64,000 bases of DNA from Candidatus Woesebacteria bacterium RIFCSPHIGHO2_01_FULL_44_10 (GCA_001792465.1 MGGO01000031.1:1172-65171), one strand, 5' to 3'; shown: positions 57,563 through 64,000, numbered from the stretch's first letter. The notes: generated by a model not told the origin, from the sequence alone. Program-made: numbers and translations.

Positions 57563-59197
57563 CTAACTGTCTTGGCCAATGGCTCGAATGTCTCTAACTT
57601 TCAATTGTAAGCTTTTGTGGCCGTTCCAGACGTTTTCTTCCAGATTATAAGCGATGTCAATTTGATCTCCCAGAGATAGTTTTTGGGCTAGGTGGCCAAA
57701 GCTAAATGCAATGGCTTCAAATACTTTTTCTTGATTTCGCAGTACCAACTTCAAATGTTTATTATCTCCCCCCACGCTGCGTGCTTCCAATACTTCAACA
57801 CCAAAAGTCGCAAAGCTGGGCGTCGGATTACCCAACCCCGTAGGGTCAAAGTCGGCAATTTTTTCAGCCAGATCCTGGGTAAGGCTGCCAAAGCCAATTT
57901 CCGTATCAACGGTTAGACTACGAGATAAAACCTCGTCGGTTAACAAGGGCTTGGCTATTTCATCCAGTTTTTGGTGGAATTCACTAATTCTTTCGGTTTT
58001 AATGCTAAATCCGGCCGCCATCGGATGGCCTCCGCCCTCTTCAATTAAGTCAGAAAGCTGCCGGATCGCCGCAATAATATTAAAGCCCGGAATTGAGCGG
58101 GCAGAGGCTTTGCTCATTTCACTGCCTTTGGCAATAACAACCGCTGGCCGCCAATGAGCTTCAACCAGCTTTGCCGCCGCCAAGCCAATCACCCCCTCGT
58201 GATAACTCTCATGAGCCAAAAGAATTACCCCCTTAAAACTTTTGTCTTTACTTGCCCCCCGGGTATGGGCAACAACCTCTTCAACGATTCTCTGCCGCTC
58301 GCTATTGGTTCTCCCCAAAAGCTGAGCTAATTCTTGAGCGCGACTTTGCGCCGGGGTACACAAAAGCCGCAGTGAATCCAGAGCATGGGCAAGTCTGCCC
58401 ATGGCATTGATTCGGGGTGCAATCACAAAGCCCACGTGGTAAGCGCCAACCCCTCCAGGGAATAAAGCTGCCTCACGCAAAAGTTCCAAGAGTCCCGGCC
58501 GCTGGGTGGTATTAAGATCGTTAAGACCGTATTTGGCAAATGATCGATTGGGGCCAATCAGAGGCAAAACGTCTGCAATGGTTCCAATTCCAGCCAGTTC
58601 CAAACCACTTTGACTGCCCAGTTCGCGGGCCAGAATCCAGGCTAGTCCCGCGCCACCGATTTTGTCCGTATGCACAGTTGCATACGCTTTGGGTAATTTT
58701 TTTTCTTTTTGATGGTGATCCGAAATAATAACATCAATCCCCAACTTGTTAGCTGTGTCAACACCTTTGTGGGCTACTATCCCGTTATCAACGGTAAGTA
58801 TTAATTTGAGGCCAGGATTTTGGTCCGCCAGCCGGCGGATTGAGTCTTTGTTGAGTCCGTATCCTTCTGAAAACCTCTCCGGAATATAGGGCATCACGTC
58901 AGCACCAAGGCTGTGAAGCGCTTCCCAGGCAATGGCAGTGGCACAAACTCCGTCTGCGTCATAATCCCCATAAACAATTATTTTTTCTTTGGCTTTGATG
59001 GCTTTTTTGATTCTTGCTGCCGCCTTTTTTACCTCACCTGATGAAATTCCAAGCTCTTTGAGAGTCAAATCCTTTGGGTGTTTAGGATTAAAAAATTCTT
59101 GACTGTTTTTAACACCTCTGTTTTCCAAAAGAATCTCTACAATTCTACTTGCACTACTTTTACTACTTGTAATACTTTTCTTAACTTCCCACTGCAT
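57563..59197 (-). CDS. recJ: Single-stranded-DNA-specific exonuclease RecJ (DHH/DHHA1)
   Basis: 'IVYGDYDADGVCAT' and 'DHH'. The GGGH DHHA1 motif is 'GGGHPMAAG'. Confidence 0.75.
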   Translation of the reverse strand: MQWEVKKSITSSKSSASRIVEILLENRGVKNSQEFFNPKHPKDLTLKELGISSGEVKKAAARIKKAIKAKEKIIVYGDYDADGVCATAIAWEALHSLGADVMPYIPERFSEGYGLNKDSIRRLADQNPGLKLILTVDNGIVAHKGVDTANKLGIDVIISDHHQKEKKLPKAYATVHTDKIGGAGLAWILARELGSQSGLELAGIGTIADVLPLIGPNRSFAKYGLNDLNTTQRPGLLELLREAALFPGGVGAYHVGFVIAPRINAMGRLAHALDSLRLLCTPAQSRAQELAQLLGRTNSERQRIVEEVVAHTRGASKDKSFKGVILLAHESYHEGVIGLAAAKLVEAHWRPAVVIAKGSEMSKASARSIPGFNIIAAIRQLSDLIEEGGGHPMAAGFSIKTERISEFHQKLDEIAKPLLTDEVLSRSLTVDTEIGFGSLTQDLAEKIADFDPTGLGNPTPSFATFGVEVLEARSVGGDNKHLKLVLRNQEKVFEAIAFSFGHLAQKLSLGDQIDIAYNLEENVWNGHKSLQLKVRDIRAIGQDS

Positions 59198-60552: not shown

Positions 60553-60933
60553 ATATCATATGTGATATTATCTAACTATAAAAAATAAAATTTACACCTT
60601 CGAGAATCATCTTAAAGAAAGCCTTAAGGCCCCGAGTTTCGAAAGACTTGGGAAGATCCGAAGCTTGAGTCTTGGGCGGCAAAACAACTAAACAAACATC
60701 GTTGCCGTCAAAAATTGAGGTTGAAGAATTGTCTTTAGATTGTTTAAAATTATCTGGGGTTGATTAAATCAAAAGGTCACGGCTTCTTGAAATCTTCCTC
60801 TAAAGAAAAAAAGAAAAACTTGGTGTGTTGTACTGGTTGATTCGTTTTCCCATTCGGAAAACTTTATCACAAATAAAATACAGCCGGTTACCAGTTTTGT
60901 GCCGGCAGTGGTTTAAGATGGTACAACTCACGC

Positions 60934-61062
60934 AAAACCGACTCGGATGGTAATCCGAACGTTTTCAATCTGAATCACAACGAAGATGGCCTCTGGTTGA
61001 ATGACAATTGGGCCAATCCTGACAGTCGGTGGAATTCTGACAACGAATTCGTTTTCTCTCTA
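60934..61062 (+). repeat. DGR template repeat (TR)
   Basis: About 125 bp, near-identical to the reverse complement of 62480-62606. Every mismatch is an A in this copy against a non-A in the other. Confidence 0.8.
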
Positions 61063-61080
61063 ACGAAAGTCTTTCTTTTT

Positions 61081-61107
61081 ACCGCACCATTCTAGGTGCG
61101 GTTTTTC
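61081..61107 (+). terminator. Hairpin (ACCGCAC/GTGCGGT stem) followed by a T5 run immediately after the TR. It is terminator-like, or may be a DGR-associated structural element.
   Basis: Read directly from the sequence: a 7-bp perfect stem, an 8-nt loop, then TTTTT. Confidence 0.45.
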
Positions 61108-61361
61108 TTCCAGCCACCAAACATTCTCCCAACCTCATCTAATTTCACCGCCGTTCGCTCGTATTGTTTATGAGAAATAAACTTCGCCTCCCAAGCGATT
61201 GAAACTAGAAATTTAAGAGCATCCAAACAAACAATGCATTCCGTAATTTTTTGGATTTTTGTTTCTTTCGGGCTAAAATAGGCTACATATGAAAACTCCA
61301 AAAGATCCAGAAATTTATTTTCAATTCTGGCTCCAATTAAGTAGCGTGCAGACTTGGGCAT
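61092..61361 (-). CDS. avd: DGR accessory variability determinant (Avd, four-helix-bundle family)
   Basis: '...LVSIAWEAKFISHKQYE...LDEVGRMFGGWKK' matches the Avd/TIGR02436 C-terminus. The annotated ORF start at 61484 runs through the (GA)n tract, so the gene was trimmed to the internal Met. Confidence 0.6.
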   Translation of the reverse strand: MPKSARYLIGARIENKFLDLLEFSYVAYFSPKETKIQKITECIVCLDALKFLVSIAWEAKFISHKQYERTAVKLDEVGRMFGGWKKNRT

Positions 61362-61398
61362 ATGAGGAACGCTAGCCAGCCACAACAAGTATCCCTCT

Positions 61399-62583
61399 TT
61401 GATTTTCCTCAAAATCGAGGAGCTCACCGAGAGAGAGAGAGAGAGAGAGAGAGTAAGGCTGCGCCATACATATAATGATATCATCCGCCTTGAAAATTTT
61501 CTTTCATCCTGGCAAGAGTTTCTAAAGGGTAAGAAAAAGCGCAGGGATGTTTTTGAATTTTCCCTCCACCTGATCGATAATCTTGTTGATCTTCACAAGA
61601 AGTTGACTGACAAAACTTACAGGCACGGAGAATATTTTGCCTTTAAGATAAACGATCCAAAACCAAGGAGTATCCACAAAGCGGGGGTGGCAGACAGACT
61701 TCTCCACCACGCAATCTATAGAATTCTGTATCCCTATTTTGATAAAAAATTCATTTTTGACTCCTATTCTTGCCGTATTGATAAGGGCACTCACAAGGCC
61801 ATCAACCGCTTTCGATACTTCGCCAGAAAAGCTTCCAAAAACAACACACGAACTGCCTGGGTACTAAAATGCGATATCAAAAAATTTTTTGCCAATATCG
61901 ACCACCAAATCTTAAAAAAGATCCTCAAAAATCACATCGCAGACCAAGAAGTACTTTGGTTGCTCAGGCAAGTTATAGATAGTTTTGAAACACCTGAAAA
62001 GCCAGAGACTGGTTTGCCGCTGGGAAACCTAACCAGTCAGCTTTTGGTGAACGTTTACATGAATGAATTTGATCGGTTTATTAAAAGGAAACTCAAAGTG
62101 AAATACTATCTTCGTTATGCCGATGACTTTACCGCCCTGAGTGAAGACAAACAATATTTAGTCGATCTAATTCCTAAAATGTCTCAGTTTTTGCAAACTG
62201 AGCTAAAACTTTCTTTGCACCCAAAAAAAATTTTCATCAAAACGCTGGTTTCCGGAGTTGACTTTTTAGGTTGGACCCACTTTCCCCACCATAGAGTGCT
62301 AAGAACAAGCACAAAACGAAGAATGCTAACAAAATTAAGCAAAAACTTTTCACTAGAAAGCTTGGCCTCGTACCTGGGCCTTTTGAGCCACGGAGACACC
62401 TTCAAACTAAGACAAAAAATCACCAGTAGGCGCCCCGCTTGCGCCGCCAAAGTGTCAAAGAGGCAAAATCTCAAGATTACTTGCGGAGAGAGAAAACGAA
62501 CGCGCTGCCAGAACGCCACCGACTGTCAGGACTGGCCCAATAGTCATCCAACCAGAGGCCATCCCCGTCGTGATCCAGAATGA
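61399..62583 (+). CDS. DGR reverse transcriptase
   Basis: 'LPLGNLTSQLL' is the [I/L]GxxxSQ motif diagnostic of DGR RTs. 'YLRYADDF' is YxDD. The N-terminal 'LKGKKKRRDVFEF..LHKKLTDKTYRHGEY' is typical. The apparent start is TTG, and the exact 5' and 3' ends are uncertain. Confidence 0.8.
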   Translation: MIFLKIEELTERERERERVRLRHTYNDIIRLENFLSSWQEFLKGKKKRRDVFEFSLHLIDNLVDLHKKLTDKTYRHGEYFAFKINDPKPRSIHKAGVADRLLHHAIYRILYPYFDKKFIFDSYSCRIDKGTHKAINRFRYFARKASKNNTRTAWVLKCDIKKFFANIDHQILKKILKNHIADQEVLWLLRQVIDSFETPEKPETGLPLGNLTSQLLVNVYMNEFDRFIKRKLKVKYYLRYADDFTALSEDKQYLVDLIPKMSQFLQTELKLSLHPKKIFIKTLVSGVDFLGWTHFPHHRVLRTSTKRRMLTKLSKNFSLESLASYLGLLSHGDTFKLRQKITSRRPACAAKVSKRQNLKITCGERKRTRCQNATDCQDWPNSHPTRGHPRRDPE

Positions 62584-64000
62584 AAACGTCCGGACCACCA
62601 CCCGAGTCGGCGACTTGTTTCATGCCAATAAATAACCATTCATATAGAGGCTGATCTTTGTATTTCAAGCGCAAAGATGGTCCGACTTCCGCAGGACACA
62701 ACTCAAGTCCCAAAGATTGTGCTTTTGCATATATCTCATCGGTTGTCGCTCCTCTTTCAAAACCCAAGGTACTAATTGTCAACCTAACCAGAGCCAATTT
62801 CCGAGGATTTTTCTCGACTTCAAATTCTCTATTTCGCATCATACTTTCCGCATAGTCACTTACATTAATTCCCTGCCTCTTTAATTCGTTTTGAAGCTGA
62901 TCTTTTGTTTTTCCCCCAATTGTTAAGATTTCACGTCCTATTTTGCCTTCCGGAAAGGACGTATATATCTCAATAGATTCAGGCAAAAACTCAAAAATCC
63001 CCGGGAAGAGTGATCCAATATAGGCTTTTGTACGCTCGTTTATGACGTCAGATGGTCCCCAAGCGATTTGATTGTTATAGATAATTTTAGCGTCACCTAT
63101 CGGATCGCGATCTGGCCTCAATCTTAACTCGGCAATCCGAGGGTCATCTTCATACCCAAATCCCTGTATCTTGGAGTCAACTTCATAAATAAATCTCAAA
63201 TCTTCAATTGATAATTCTTGTCCCTTGTTTACTTTTTCCTCAAGCCCAGTCAATCGCTTCATATCAGCAGAGGCTTTGCGGTACTTTTCCGCGCCAGGAA
63301 GTTGGTCAATTTTTTCCTCGGCAATGGTAACCATATTTGCTTCCAAGTTTTGATCTTTATCTGCTACTCCCCGGGCTTCAAAAATTTCTCCCTTTTGCAT
63401 CCGGATGGCAATTCTGGGAATTGTTGGATTACCGTATTTATCAGGTGTGTAGTAAACATAAAAATCCCCACCTTCCAGTTGTGCCTTTGCGGTGCCAAAA
63501 CCAGCAGTGCACCAAGAGGTACCTTTATTTTGCAGTGATTTCCAAAGTTCAGTTGGGTCAGACCCTTGACGGTAAGCAATCCACATTCCTTTGGTTTCCT
63601 CTTTCATCTCAGAGGTGATCTCGCCCTTTTGTTTTATTCCTTCAGCATATTGGTCAGCAAACGACATCCTTGCAAATTCCCGCGCTTCTCTTTGTGTTAA
63701 AACGTCGTTTTCTGGGACATTCATCCTTCTTTGCGCTTTTTGAATATTCTCAAGAGCCCGATTGTCATACGCCGCGCTGATCATATCCTGAACATACCCC
63801 AAAGCACTCCTGTCTATATCCGGAAAAAGAAAGTTCGTTCCTGGAGAGCGCTTGGGGAACTTACCTTCATCCTTGTCCCAACGACCTAAACTTAAAATAC
63901 TTCGGAAAGCATAGTAGCGGAACCATGGGGCATATGGCTCATTGGGGTCAGAAAAATAATTTATCCATTGGTCCAGCGATTTTTCCAGATCCTCAACTGC
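62477..64000 (-). CDS. DGR target protein with C-terminal variable repeat. The N-terminus runs off the window end, so the gene is partial.
   Basis: The reading frame stays open to position 64000 upstream of the annotated start. The C-terminal 42 aa are encoded by the VR. Confidence 0.7.
   Translation of the reverse strand, partial: AVEDLEKSLDQWINYFSDPNEPYAPWFRYYAFRSILSLGRWDKDEGKFPKRSPGTNFLFPDIDRSALGYVQDMISAAYDNRALENIQKAQRRMNVPENDVLTQREAREFARMSFADQYAEGIKQKGEITSEMKEETKGMWIAYRQGSDPTELWKSLQNKGTSWCTAGFGTAKAQLEGGDFYVYYTPDKYGNPTIPRIAIRMQKGEIFEARGVADKDQNLEANMVTIAEEKIDQLPGAEKYRKASADMKRLTGLEEKVNKGQELSIEDLRFIYEVDSKIQGFGYEDDPRIAELRLRPDRDPIGDAKIIYNNQIAWGPSDVINERTKAYIGSLFPGIFEFLPESIEIYTSFPEGKIGREILTIGGKTKDQLQNELKRQGINVSDYAESMMRNREFEVEKNPRKLALVRLTISTLGFERGATTDEIYAKAQSLGLELCPAEVGPSLRLKYKDQPLYEWLFIGMKQVADSGGGPDVFILDHDGDGLWLDDYWASPDSRWRSGSAFVFSLRK
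62480..62606 (-). repeat. DGR variable repeat (VR) at the 3' end of the target gene
   Basis: See the TR entry. The TR-A to VR-N substitutions include GG, G, T, G, CG, G, G and C. Confidence 0.8.

What the first reader, a model, noticed from the sequence alone, without database searches (positions are those of the whole stretch)
60934..64000. Complete diversity-generating retroelement (TR-Avd-RT-target/VR)
The TR (60934-61062, + strand) and the 3' end of the minus-strand ORF at 62477.. (VR) are about 125 bp of reverse-complementary near-identity. Every difference is an adenine in the TR against a non-adenine in the VR, which is the hallmark of DGR mutagenic retrohoming. The RT carries the DGR-specific 'GNLTSQ' motif. 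A four-helix-bundle Avd-like gene lies between the TR and the RT on the opposite strand. The TR/VR identity breaks down in the last roughly 15 nt ('ctccgcaag' against 'ctaacgaaag'), consistent with the IMH and IMH* sites. The target protein is long (more than 500 aa, partial) and ends in 'DGLWLDDYWASPDSRWRSGSAFVFSLRK'.
Basis: seen in the sequence. Interest (0 to 1): 0.7.

Follow-up and report, generated by a model that had tools for sequence, protein, structure and literature searches.

The report
Patescibacterial DGR with unstable repeat switch
This is a genuine, complete diversity-generating retroelement of the kind already known from Candidate Phyla Radiation bacteria, ordinary as such, but it carries an unreported, length-unstable purine repeat between its avd and reverse-transcriptase genes that may gate the mutator.

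Summary
TR 60938-61061 (+) and VR 62487-62610 (coding on -) align without gaps over 124 nt. All 18 mismatches are TR-adenine against VR non-adenine (chance about 3e-11). The RT is closest to Bordetella phage bRT and has GNLTSQ and YADD. An Avd gene lies between TR and RT on the opposite strand. The VR ends a 618-aa cytoplasmic protein whose C-terminal domain models as a divergent C-type-lectin fold. The host is a Rifle groundwater Woesebacteria MAG. More than 30 related Patescibacteria loci share the same TR / reversed avd / RT cassette, so this is a member of the known CPR DGR clade.

Three features were new to me:
- The TR sits in a self-contained structured RNA with its own promoter, a covarying 5' domain and a terminator hairpin. 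No Rfam family matches it.
- A homopurine repeat, (GA)n or poly-G, lies at the avd/RT junction in all 29 related cassettes. It is 19, 21, 23 or 25 nt long in otherwise identical assemblies of this strain. Its length decides whether the RT has an in-frame start codon.
- An 8-nt periodic array follows the target gene.

The VR is identical in eight assemblies, so recent activity is not shown.

The parts
60721..60750 (+). Promoter-like site for the TR RNA (TTGAAG-18-TAAAAT, with an extended -10 TGTTTAAAAT at 60741-60750)
   Evidence: Consensus scan hit. A TGnTAnAAT-type element sits at the same aligned position in most of 33 related loci. Function is inferred.
60757..60937 (+). Structured 5' leader of the TR RNA. 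Helix 1 is 60772-60787. The A-rich strand is 60805-60822. Helix 4 pairs 60823-60834 with 60920-60933. Helix 5 is 60838-60869. Helix 6 is 60883-60906. Helices 2/3, present in all 32 relatives, are deleted here.
   Evidence: RNAalifold on 33 loci. Pair counts: 94.3% of cells paired against 75% in shuffles and 38-50% when partners are slid, and 35 of 45 pairs have compensatory changes. Column-to-coordinate mapping. No Rfam match.
60938..61061 (+). Template repeat (TR), 124 nt, 32 adenines, 10 AAY codons
   Evidence: The TR is identical in all 7 sequences compared (the window and L001-L006).
61062..61080 (+). TR 3' flank: IMH*-like AACGAAAGT plus a U-rich strand (about 61066-61079) that can pair with the A-rich strand 60805-60822
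   Evidence: The flank is conserved in relatives. Cognate A-rich:U-rich duplexes average -5.3 kcal/mol against -4.1 for non-cognate pairings, permutation p<0.0002.
61081..61107 (+). Terminator-like hairpin (ACCGCACC-ATTCTA-GGTGCGGT) followed by T5. Its 3' arm also encodes the last Avd codons on the other strand.
   Evidence: Terminator scan. In helix 8, 6 of 6 pairs covary across relatives.
61092..61427 (-). avd (accessory variability determinant), 111 aa from the GTG at 61425-61427. Alternative upstream ATGs exist in all three frames, so the longest ORF runs to 61484 through the repeat.
   Evidence: Pfam bAvd 2.2e-16. NCBIfam DivGenRetAVD 66.6 bits, model positions 3-104 on ORF residues 24-127. 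PHROG 3206. Start-codon analysis.
61429..61453 (.). (GA)12G simple sequence repeat at the divergent avd/RT junction
   Evidence: It is the only dinucleotide repeat of 5 or more units in the window. Its length is 25, 23, 21 or 19 nt in otherwise identical assemblies. A homopurine tract occupies the same place in all 29 related cassettes.
61399..62583 (+). Reverse transcriptase ORF. The conserved core is about 61456-62427, with GNLTSQ at 62023-62040 and YADD at 62116-62127. There is no ATG/GTG/TTG between the repeat and the conserved N-terminus. The ORF tail 62428-62583 runs antisense through the target's 3' flank and VR.
62429..62445 (-). GC-rich hairpin (GGCGC-N7-GCGCC) downstream of the target stop codon, followed by a T-run
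   Evidence: Comparable GC hairpins plus T-runs lie downstream of the VR in relatives. A role as terminator or target-site determinant is inferred.
62445..62476 (-). Four units of an 8-nt periodic NNNCTTWG array directly after the target stop codon
   Evidence: 164 motifs in 34 sequences (the window and 33 related loci) against 38.8 +/- 5.8 in shuffles, with the dominant spacing at 8 nt.
62487..62610 (-). Variable repeat (VR), encoding the last 40-odd residues of the target. The IMH-like CCGCAAGT lies at 62479-62486.
62477..64000 (-). Target (variable protein) gene: the C-terminal 507 of 618 codons, cut by the window end. It has no signal peptide. Its C-terminal 200 aa form a C-type-lectin-like domain.

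Best explanation
This is a chromosomal diversity-generating retroelement of the Patescibacteria (CPR) DGR clade, in a Woesebacteria genome.

Inferred mechanism:
1. A roughly 350-nt RNA is transcribed from its own promoter (about 60721-60750) and ends at the hairpin and T-run at 61081-61107.
2. In this RNA the 124-nt TR is held as a loop between a covarying 5' domain and a 3' U-rich strand and hairpin.
3. The RT, together with Avd, copies the TR into cDNA and misincorporates opposite adenines.
4. The cDNA replaces the VR at the 3' end of the convergent 618-aa target gene. The 3' boundary is set by the short IMH-like CCGCAAGT.
5. This rewrites up to 20 codons (about 1e18 variants) on the binding face of a C-type-lectin-like domain of a cytoplasmic protein of unknown function.

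Shown here: all sequence parts, the adenine specificity, the RNA covariation, the fold class, the family context and the repeat polymorphism.
Inferred: transcription, priming, homing and present-day activity.

Activity is probably low or gated. The RT lacks a canonical start after the (GA)n tract, so its translation depends on tract length or on a non-canonical start.
For: - TR/VR: 124 nt, 18 of 18 mismatches at TR adenines.
- Lineage: 32 distinct related TR/VR pairs show 52.7% of A sites changed against 0.68% of non-A sites.
- RT: closest solved relative is bRT 8ub7 at 6.9e-40, aligned from its N-terminus. GNLTSQ and YADD are present. PHROG 1423 matches at 2e-107.
- Avd.
- Cassette: the order TR(+) / avd(-) / RT(+) recurs next to target homologues in about 30 species.
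- TR-flanking RNA: 94.3% of cells paired, 35 of 45 pairs compensatory, and well above both controls. The long-range A:U clamp is supported.
- Terminator and promoter scans.
- Target family: its last roughly 45 residues are hypervariable on a conserved scaffold.
- Host and literature: the RT is GenBank OGM29523.1 from Candidatus Woesebacteria. The CPR DGR clade 2, with domain-less and TM-less targets and below-average activity, is described in PMC8144416.
Against: - No sign of ongoing diversification. The VR is identical in the window and 7 further assemblies from different samples. These assemblies are almost clonal, so little time has passed.
- The RT has no ATG/GTG/TTG between the repeat and its conserved N-terminus.
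- The window's TR leader lacks helices 2/3, which all 32 relatives have.
- The TR 3' end departs from the lineage consensus.
- The Avd match is below NCBIfam's cut-off.
Confidence: 0.88

Rival explanations
1. The cassette is a decaying or silenced DGR. The parts are recognisable but it no longer diversifies the target, and the VR is a frozen product of past activity.
For: - The VR is invariant across 8 assemblies.
- The RT start codon position is AGG where relatives have ATG.
- The TR leader has a lineage-specific 65-nt deletion, and the IMH*-like end is aberrant.
- A clearly broken cassette, with a split RT and a 78-aa Avd, lies next to an intact target in L109-L111.
- CPR clade 2 DGRs show below-average activity (PMC8144416).
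Against: - There are no non-adenine differences over the 124 nt of TR/VR.
- The RT ORF is intact and has its catalytic motifs.
- Avd is intact, and the TR is identical in all copies.
- The assemblies compared differ by 0-18 positions over about 14 kb, so the lack of VR change says little.
- 9 of the 13 contigs counted carry repeat lengths that keep the RT in frame with the upstream TTG.
Confidence: 0.1
2. The homopurine tract between avd and RT has no switching role. It would be a promoter, 5'-UTR or ribosome-binding element, or a tolerated slippage-prone spacer, and its length polymorphism would be a by-product or partly an assembly artefact.
For: - In 6 of 29 related cassettes both genes have canonical starts between the tract and the gene core, so tract length cannot shift their frames, yet the tract is kept.
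- In this locus Avd has a start in every frame.
- Across species, the share of loci with an in-frame upstream start is about what chance gives.
- Some relatives have (GA)nGGAAAATG, where the tract could act as a Shine-Dalgarno-like element.
- Dinucleotide and homopolymer lengths are error-prone in short-read assemblies (general knowledge).
Against: - Two chemically different but equally slippage-prone tracts, (GA)n and poly-G, occupy the same place.
- The tract is the sole difference between otherwise identical 8-15 kb assemblies in two lineages.
- Short or interrupted tracts are not polymorphic.
- In the window and the Yanofskybacteria locus, the tract lies between the only canonical start and the RT core.
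- Poly-G lies 13-34 nt from the ATG in four loci, too far for a Shine-Dalgarno element.
Confidence: 0.5
3. This is not a DGR at all. It would be a chance inverted repeat next to a retron, group II intron or defence-type reverse transcriptase.
For: The RT also matches group II intron, Drt3a and retron models, all below their cut-offs.
Against: - The mismatch pattern has a chance probability of about 3e-11.
- An Avd gene is adjacent.
- The best solved relative is bRT.
- The same arrangement, with A-only mismatches, recurs in more than 30 species.
- No intron RNA or retron msr/msd was found by Rfam.
Confidence: 0.01

Closest known systems
Bordetella phage BPP-1 DGR (mtd-VR / avd / TR / brt), the prototype
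   Same: - The RT is homologous along its whole length, including the N-terminus (8ub7, 6.9e-40).
- An Avd partner is present.
- TR-to-VR differences are adenine-specific.
- The template is flanked by required upstream and downstream RNA (abstracts of PMC6182149 and bioRxiv 10.1101/2023.10.23.563531, listed).
   Different: - avd is inverted and lies between TR and RT.
- The TR RNA has its own promoter and terminator, rather than being avd-TR-Sp-brt on one strand.
- The flanking RNA is a different, lineage-specific fold.
- The IMH-like element is only about 8-10 nt.
- The target is a cytoplasmic cellular protein, not a phage tail fibre.
- A hypermutable repeat precedes the RT.
Patescibacteria/CPR DGRs (DGR clade 2 of Roux et al. 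2021, PMC8144416; first surveyed by Paul et al. 2017, Nat Microbiol, not held here and cited from memory)
   Same: - The host phylum and groundwater habitat are the same.
- The element is cellular, not viral.
- The targets have no recognisable domain or transmembrane segment, and apparent activity is low.
- More than 30 GTDB species carry the same cassette and target family.
   Different: Nothing separates this element from that clade. I found no paper that links DGRs with simple sequence repeats or phase variation. I found no published description of the TR-RNA scaffold or the 8-nt array either, but I ran no literature search for those two.
Treponema denticola TvpA and other FGE-type C-type-lectin DGR variable proteins
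   Different: - There is no sequence-family match in Pfam, NCBIfam or PDB.
- The scaffold motif is different (VFxLxxxxxGLWLxxxWAxPxxxWxxxxxFVFRLRK).
- The domain is fused to a 420-aa N-terminal region with no fold match.
Simple-sequence-repeat contingency loci, for example the Haemophilus influenzae hifA/hifB (TA)n divergent promoter and Neisseria poly-G/C tracts in promoters or 5' coding regions (general knowledge; reviews PMC11868660 and PMC11475388, listed)
   Same: - A long mono- or dinucleotide tract lies between divergent genes or just after a start codon.
- Its length is polymorphic within clonal populations.
- Its length changes the reading-frame relation between start codon and gene.
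   Different: - It controls a mutagenesis machine rather than a surface antigen.
- Switching of expression has not been shown.
- In some relatives the tract cannot act by frameshift.

Membership tests
Diversity-generating retroelement (DGR) | Reverse transcriptase of the DGR clade with catalytic YxDD and the [I/L]GxxxSQ motif | tested here: met
   YADD at 62116-62127 and LGNLTSQ at 62023-62040. The best PDB relative is bRT at 6.9e-40. PHROG 1423 matches at 2e-107.
Diversity-generating retroelement (DGR) | A template repeat and a variable repeat that differ (almost) only at TR adenines | tested here: met
   124 nt with 18 of 18 mismatches at TR adenines. Lineage-wide, 554 of 573 differences are at A.
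Diversity-generating retroelement (DGR) | Accessory protein (Avd or HRDC) next to the RT | tested here: met
   Pfam bAvd 2.2e-16. PHROG 'Avd protein of DGR' 3.6e-18. NCBIfam DivGenRetAVD scores 66.6 bits, below its 80-bit cut-off.
Diversity-generating retroelement (DGR) | VR at the 3' end of a protein-coding target, in a variation-tolerant (C-type-lectin or Ig) fold | tested here: met
Diversity-generating retroelement (DGR) | IMH/IMH* asymmetry at the 3' end of VR and TR that sets directionality | tested here: inconclusive
   Relatives show a fixed VR CCGCAAGT against TR CCGAAAGT/CCGAAACT. The window has VR CTCTCCGCAAGT against TR CTCTAACGAAAGT. The element is short, unlike the 35-bp Bordetella IMH, and its function is untested.
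Diversity-generating retroelement (DGR) | Ongoing diversification of the VR in populations | tested here: not met
   The VR is identical in the window and 7 other assemblies. This is a consensus-level comparison of near-clonal samples only; reads were not available.
SSR-mediated phase-variable (contingency) locus | A simple sequence repeat long enough to slip, with length polymorphism among otherwise identical genomes | tested here: met
   (GA)n is 19, 21, 23 or 25 nt long across the 13 contigs counted and is the only difference over 5-15 kb in L001, L002, L005 and L087. The Yanofskybacteria strain has G10 or G9. Short or interrupted tracts are invariant.
SSR-mediated phase-variable (contingency) locus | The repeat is placed so that length changes alter expression (promoter spacer or reading frame) | tested here: inconclusive
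   In the window, the RT is in frame with TTG 61399 at 19/25 nt, with ATG 61362 at 21 nt, and with no start at 23 nt, while Avd always has a start. In 6 of 29 relatives neither gene depends on tract length. No sigma-70-like promoter was found across the tract.
SSR-mediated phase-variable (contingency) locus | Reversible ON/OFF change of the gene product or phenotype | not testable with these tools
   This needs reporter fusions, proteomics, or read-level linkage of tract length to VR heterogeneity.

The most novel reading that the evidence does not exclude
The homopurine repeat at the avd/RT junction is a contingency switch on the mutator itself. Slippage of (GA)n, or of poly-G in sister lineages, would stochastically move the RT (and in some lineages Avd) in and out of frame with its start codon, or change its expression. 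Only a shifting minority of cells would then run mutagenic retrohoming while the rest keep a fixed VR. This would be a heritable, reversible ON/OFF gate for targeted hypermutation. It could explain the low apparent activity of CPR DGRs.
Probability: 0.35. Interest if true: 0.75.

Novelty: new member of a known kind. Interest (0 to 1): 0.45.

Why it matters
As a DGR, this adds nothing new in kind. It belongs to the CPR clade already catalogued from the same aquifer, although its genes are still labelled hypothetical in GenBank.

The comparative by-products are worth keeping.
- How cells restrain DGR mutagenesis is an acknowledged open question. [quoted passage not shown] A conserved, demonstrably unstable repeat sitting exactly between avd and RT is a concrete regulatory candidate. 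It can be tested with existing metagenome reads.
- The covarying TR-RNA scaffold gives a second, independent example of how a DGR template is presented to its RT. It could guide reconstitution or engineering of a compact CPR DGR.
- The target family is very large (5,537 clusters at 50% identity), restricted to Patescibacteria as far as named sources show, cytoplasmic, and of unknown function.

Tried and rejected
- Second target: a degenerate (A-masked) TR scan on both strands of the 64 kb window found no other VR.
- Rfam, with permissive thresholds, on the window region and on three relatives with complete leaders: nothing at the TR RNA.
- Pfam, NCBIfam, PDB sequence search, PADLOC and PHROGs on the target: no family.
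- VR differences among sister assemblies, sought as direct evidence of activity: none.
- Shine-Dalgarno role for the tract: (GA)n pairs over only about 3 nt with the anti-SD, and poly-G lies 13-34 nt from the ATG, so this was judged weak (my reasoning).
- A sigma-70 promoter spanning the tract: none found.
- Enrichment of RT-in-frame states across species: 23 of 29 have some in-frame start, about what two start-bearing frames out of three would give, so this is uninformative.
- Column-wise pair counting for the A-rich:U-rich helix was spoiled by indels. I replaced it with a cognate against non-cognate duplex-energy permutation test.
- Look-ups of P0110 and P0004 for more population data gave a target without a cassette and a degraded cassette.
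- Paul et al. 2017 could not be read because it is not held.
- Literature searches for DGR together with SSR, phase variation, slipped-strand, homopolymeric tract or dinucleotide repeat returned no paper linking them.
Full report
**1. The observation**

The region holds one long inverted repeat, 60938-61061 against 62487-62610, 124 nt and 85% complementary. I aligned the + strand of the left arm against the coding (-) strand of the right arm, without gaps. This gives 18 mismatches. In every one the left arm has A and the right arm has G (14), T (2) or C (2). 18 of the 32 adenines are changed and none of the 92 other bases. With 25.8% A, the chance of this pattern is about 3e-11 (my arithmetic).

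In the reading frame of the right arm, 16 of the 18 changes fall on first or second codon positions. The template has 10 AAY codons and 20 variable codons. No substitution at A can create a stop codon, and about 1e18 peptides are reachable. No other copy of the template exists in the window, even with adenines masked.

**2. The genes**

- *RT.* ORF 61399-62583 (+) is a reverse transcriptase (RVT_1, 4.6e-24). It carries LGNLTSQ (62023-62040) and YADD (62116-62127). Its best solved relative is the Bordetella phage DGR enzyme bRT (8ub7, 6.9e-40), aligned from bRT residue 6. It matches PHROG 1423 at 2e-107. Group II intron, Drt and retron models score far below their cut-offs.
- *Avd.* ORF 61092-61484 (-) is an Avd: Pfam bAvd at 2.2e-16, PHROG 'Avd protein of DGR' at 3.6e-18, and NCBIfam DivGenRetAVD at 66.6 bits against an 80-bit cut-off.
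- *Target.* The frame is open from the window end down to the stop at 62477. Sister contigs give the full gene of 618 aa. It has a hydrophilic N-terminus and no signal peptide.
- *Context.* The flanking genes are aspartyl-tRNA synthetase, RecJ and the CCA-adding enzyme, so the element is chromosomal. The RT is GenBank OGM29523.1, a 'hypothetical protein' of a Candidatus Woesebacteria MAG.

**3. The target protein**

It has no Pfam, NCBIfam, PADLOC, PHROG or PDB sequence match. It nevertheless belongs to a very large family:
- 1,353 hits in the word-indexed search. The 120 best listed are full-length or nearly so, at 53-66% identity apart from the query's own cluster. All named ones come from Patescibacteria and are called hypothetical.
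- 5,537 cluster representatives at E<=1e-3 in the exhaustive search, some sharing only the N-terminal 420 aa.

The alignment shows a strongly conserved body, with motifs such as EPYxxWFRYYxFR and WCTxGxxTAxxQLxxGDFYVYYT. The hypervariable last roughly 45 residues sit on a fixed scaffold, VFxLxxxxxGLWLxxxWAxPxxxWxxxxxFVFRLRK.

Foldseek puts C-type lectins first, at weak E-values. So the VR decorates a divergent lectin-type fold, as in classical DGRs. The N-terminal 420 residues match nothing reliable.

**4. Relatives**

A scan of GTDB species representatives found 331 loci encoding a relative of the target, and 80 were fetched.
- About 30 of them have the RT and Avd within 5 kb, always in the order TR(+), avd(-), RT(+). 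This cassette lies downstream of the target in the same orientation (most cases), inverted as in the window, or upstream.
- 33 loci have a TR/VR pair. Over 32 distinct pairs, 52.7% of A sites differ against 0.68% of non-A sites. There is a lineage-wide A>G excess, 363 of 554 changes.

This is the CPR-restricted DGR clade 2 of Roux et al. 2021. Its targets are reported to lack recognisable or transmembrane domains, and its activity is reported as below average (PMC8144416). The first survey of CPR DGRs (Paul et al. 2017) could not be read here. From memory, it used genomes from the same aquifer, so this element may already be listed there.

**5. How the template is presented**

An alignment of 33 TR regions shows these conserved features, in order:
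- an extended -10 promoter element (window TGTTTAAAAT, 60741-60750; scan hit 60721-60750)
- a leader of about 190 nt
- the TR
- a fixed CGAAAGT/CGAAACT
- a U-rich stretch
- a GC hairpin followed by T5 (window 61081-61107, a terminator-like site)

RNAalifold predicts 45 pairs, and the tool counted 34 with compensatory changes. In the independent pair count, 94.3% of cells are paired, against 75% in shuffles and 38-50% when partners are slid. 35 pairs have changes on both sides. The covariation score is 0.64, against 0.27 for shuffles and 0.11-0.19 for slid partners.

Helix 4 (60823-60834 with 60920-60933) ends 4 nt before the TR. The A-rich strand just 5' of it (60805-60822) is complementary to the U-rich strand just 3' of the TR. 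Cognate duplexes are more stable than non-cognate ones (-5.3 against -4.1 kcal/mol, permutation p<0.0002). Variants switch together, for example AAAUGAAG with CUUCAUUU and AAAUAAAAA with UUUUUAUUU.

I infer that the TR is a loop clamped at both ends by a quasi-continuous helix, in a stand-alone RNA of about 350 nt. This parallels the Bordetella requirement for RNA upstream and downstream of the TR (abstracts listed). No Rfam family matches. The window's copy lacks helices 2/3, which all 32 relatives have.

**6. The repeat between avd and RT**

The (GA)12G tract at 61429-61453 is the only dinucleotide repeat of 5 or more units in the 64 kb.

*Polymorphism in this strain.*
- Looking up the neighbouring CCA-enzyme gene returned six assemblies of the same strain from different samples, and a further look-up added a seventh.
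- They are 99.84-100% identical to the window. In L001, L002, L005 and L087 the tract length is the only difference over 5-15 kb.
- Among the seven assemblies fetched, the tract is 25 nt in L004 (as in the window), 23 nt in L003 and L087, 21 nt in L001, and 19 nt in L002, L005 and L006.
- The RT protein cluster lists matching length variants on 13 contigs: 392 aa on 6, 394 aa on 3, 405 aa on 2, and 298 and 326 aa on 1 each.

*Conservation in relatives.*
- Every one of the 29 related cassettes has a homopurine tract at the same spot, (GA)5-17 or G7-11. One has both.
- In 718 kb of related loci there are only 17 dinucleotide repeats of 6 or more units. One search found such repeats at about 17 avd/RT junctions. 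I did not cross-tabulate the two sets, so how many of the 17 lie at the junction is inferred rather than counted.
- A Yanofskybacteria strain has G10 in four assemblies and G9 in one, again the only difference in 7.9 kb. With G10 the RT is in frame with an ATG 22 nt upstream of the tract; with G9 it is not.
- Two lineages with short or interrupted tracts show no polymorphism, over 7 and 4 assemblies respectively.

*Effect on reading frames.*
- In the window there is no ATG, GTG or TTG between the tract and the RT's conserved N-terminus. The bRT alignment puts that N-terminus at the end of the tract.
- The RT is in frame with TTG 61399 at 19 or 25 nt, with ATG 61362 at 21 nt, and with nothing at 23 nt. 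Avd has a GTG directly after the tract plus an upstream ATG in each frame.
- Across relatives the picture is mixed. At the observed lengths, both genes have starts in 15 loci, only the RT in 8, only Avd in 4, and neither in 2. In 6 loci neither gene depends on tract length.

I found no paper connecting DGRs with simple sequence repeats or phase variation. A recent DGR study states that the regulatory mechanisms of retrohoming await discovery.

My reading is this. The tract is real, conserved because of its place, and hypermutable. Whether it is a switch (about 35%) or a promoter/UTR element with incidental instability is open.

**7. Is the element active?**

The TR and VR differ at no non-adenine position, the TR is identical in all copies, and the RT and Avd are intact. 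Against this:
- The VR is identical in eight assemblies.
- The RT lacks a canonical post-tract start.
- The leader has lost helices 2/3.
- The TR 3' end is CTCTAACGAAAGT where relatives have CTCCGAAAGT.

The assemblies are nearly clonal, so the lack of VR change is weak evidence. I put about 10% on a dead element. A clearly decayed cassette beside an intact target exists in another lineage.

**8. Verdict**

The element is a complete DGR of a known clade, hence a new member of a known kind and of modest interest in itself. The conserved unstable repeat at the avd/RT junction, the covarying TR-RNA scaffold and the 8-nt array after the target gene are the points worth following up.

Noticed in passing
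window 61429-61453; L001-L006, L087; L088-L092: The homopurine repeat at the avd/RT junction is length-polymorphic in two near-clonal populations: (GA)n at 19, 21, 23 or 25 nt, and poly-G at 10 or 9. A tract is present at the same place in all 29 related cassettes. In the window its length decides whether the RT has an in-frame canonical start codon.
   Followed up: yes
window 60757-61107; alignment A3 of 33 loci: The TR is embedded in a conserved, covarying RNA with a 5' multi-helix domain, an A-rich:U-rich clamp and a terminator hairpin. The RNA has its own extended -10 promoter and no Rfam match. The window copy uniquely lacks helices 2/3.
   Followed up: yes
window 62445-62476 (- strand); downstream of target stop codons in L007-L086: An array of NNNCTTWG units with 8-nt spacing follows the target stop codon: 164 motifs in 34 sequences (the window and 33 related loci) against about 39 expected. 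It is also present at target homologues with no DGR cassette within 5 kb. Its function is unknown; it might be a homing determinant or an mRNA element.
   Followed up: partly
window 62428-62583 (+): The RT ORF continues about 50 codons past its conserved end. It runs antisense through the target's hairpin, the 8-nt array and 97 nt of the VR before reaching a stop. If translated, the RT tail would change whenever the VR is rewritten.
   Followed up: no
window 58301-58350 (recJ, - strand): L003 and L004 differ from the window in this 50-bp patch (16 substitutions in L003), changing 6 amino acids (PAQSRAQELAQLLGR to PVQARARQLADLLGK). Apart from the (GA)n tract, the rest of the 10-15 kb compared is identical. 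This looks like a short recombination tract.
   Followed up: partly
L091:5749-6179 against L088: One Yanofskybacteria contig is identical to its sisters through the target, TR, avd and poly-G tract. From just after the tract onward it diverges (110 mismatches in about 430 nt) and continues into different genes. The breakpoint at the repeat is either recombination or an assembly chimera.
   Followed up: no
L109-L111 (relatives of the target, protein P0004): An intact target gene lies next to a degraded cassette: the RT is split into 125-aa and 175-aa ORFs, and the Avd-position ORF is 78 aa with no Pfam hit. This suggests the cassette can decay while the target persists.
   Followed up: no
32 related TR/VR pairs (L007-L085) and window 62487-62610: There is a lineage-wide bias in the fixed VR substitutions: A>G 363, A>T 117 and A>C 74 (window: 14, 2, 2). 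The cause could be an RT misincorporation preference or selection.
   Followed up: partly
target protein residues 1-420 (window 62820-64000 and beyond): The N-terminal region is very strongly conserved, with an invariant WCT...GDFYVYYT...IPRIAIRM block, across thousands of Patescibacteria proteins. It has no family or fold match. Some relatives pair it with different C-termini.
   Followed up: partly
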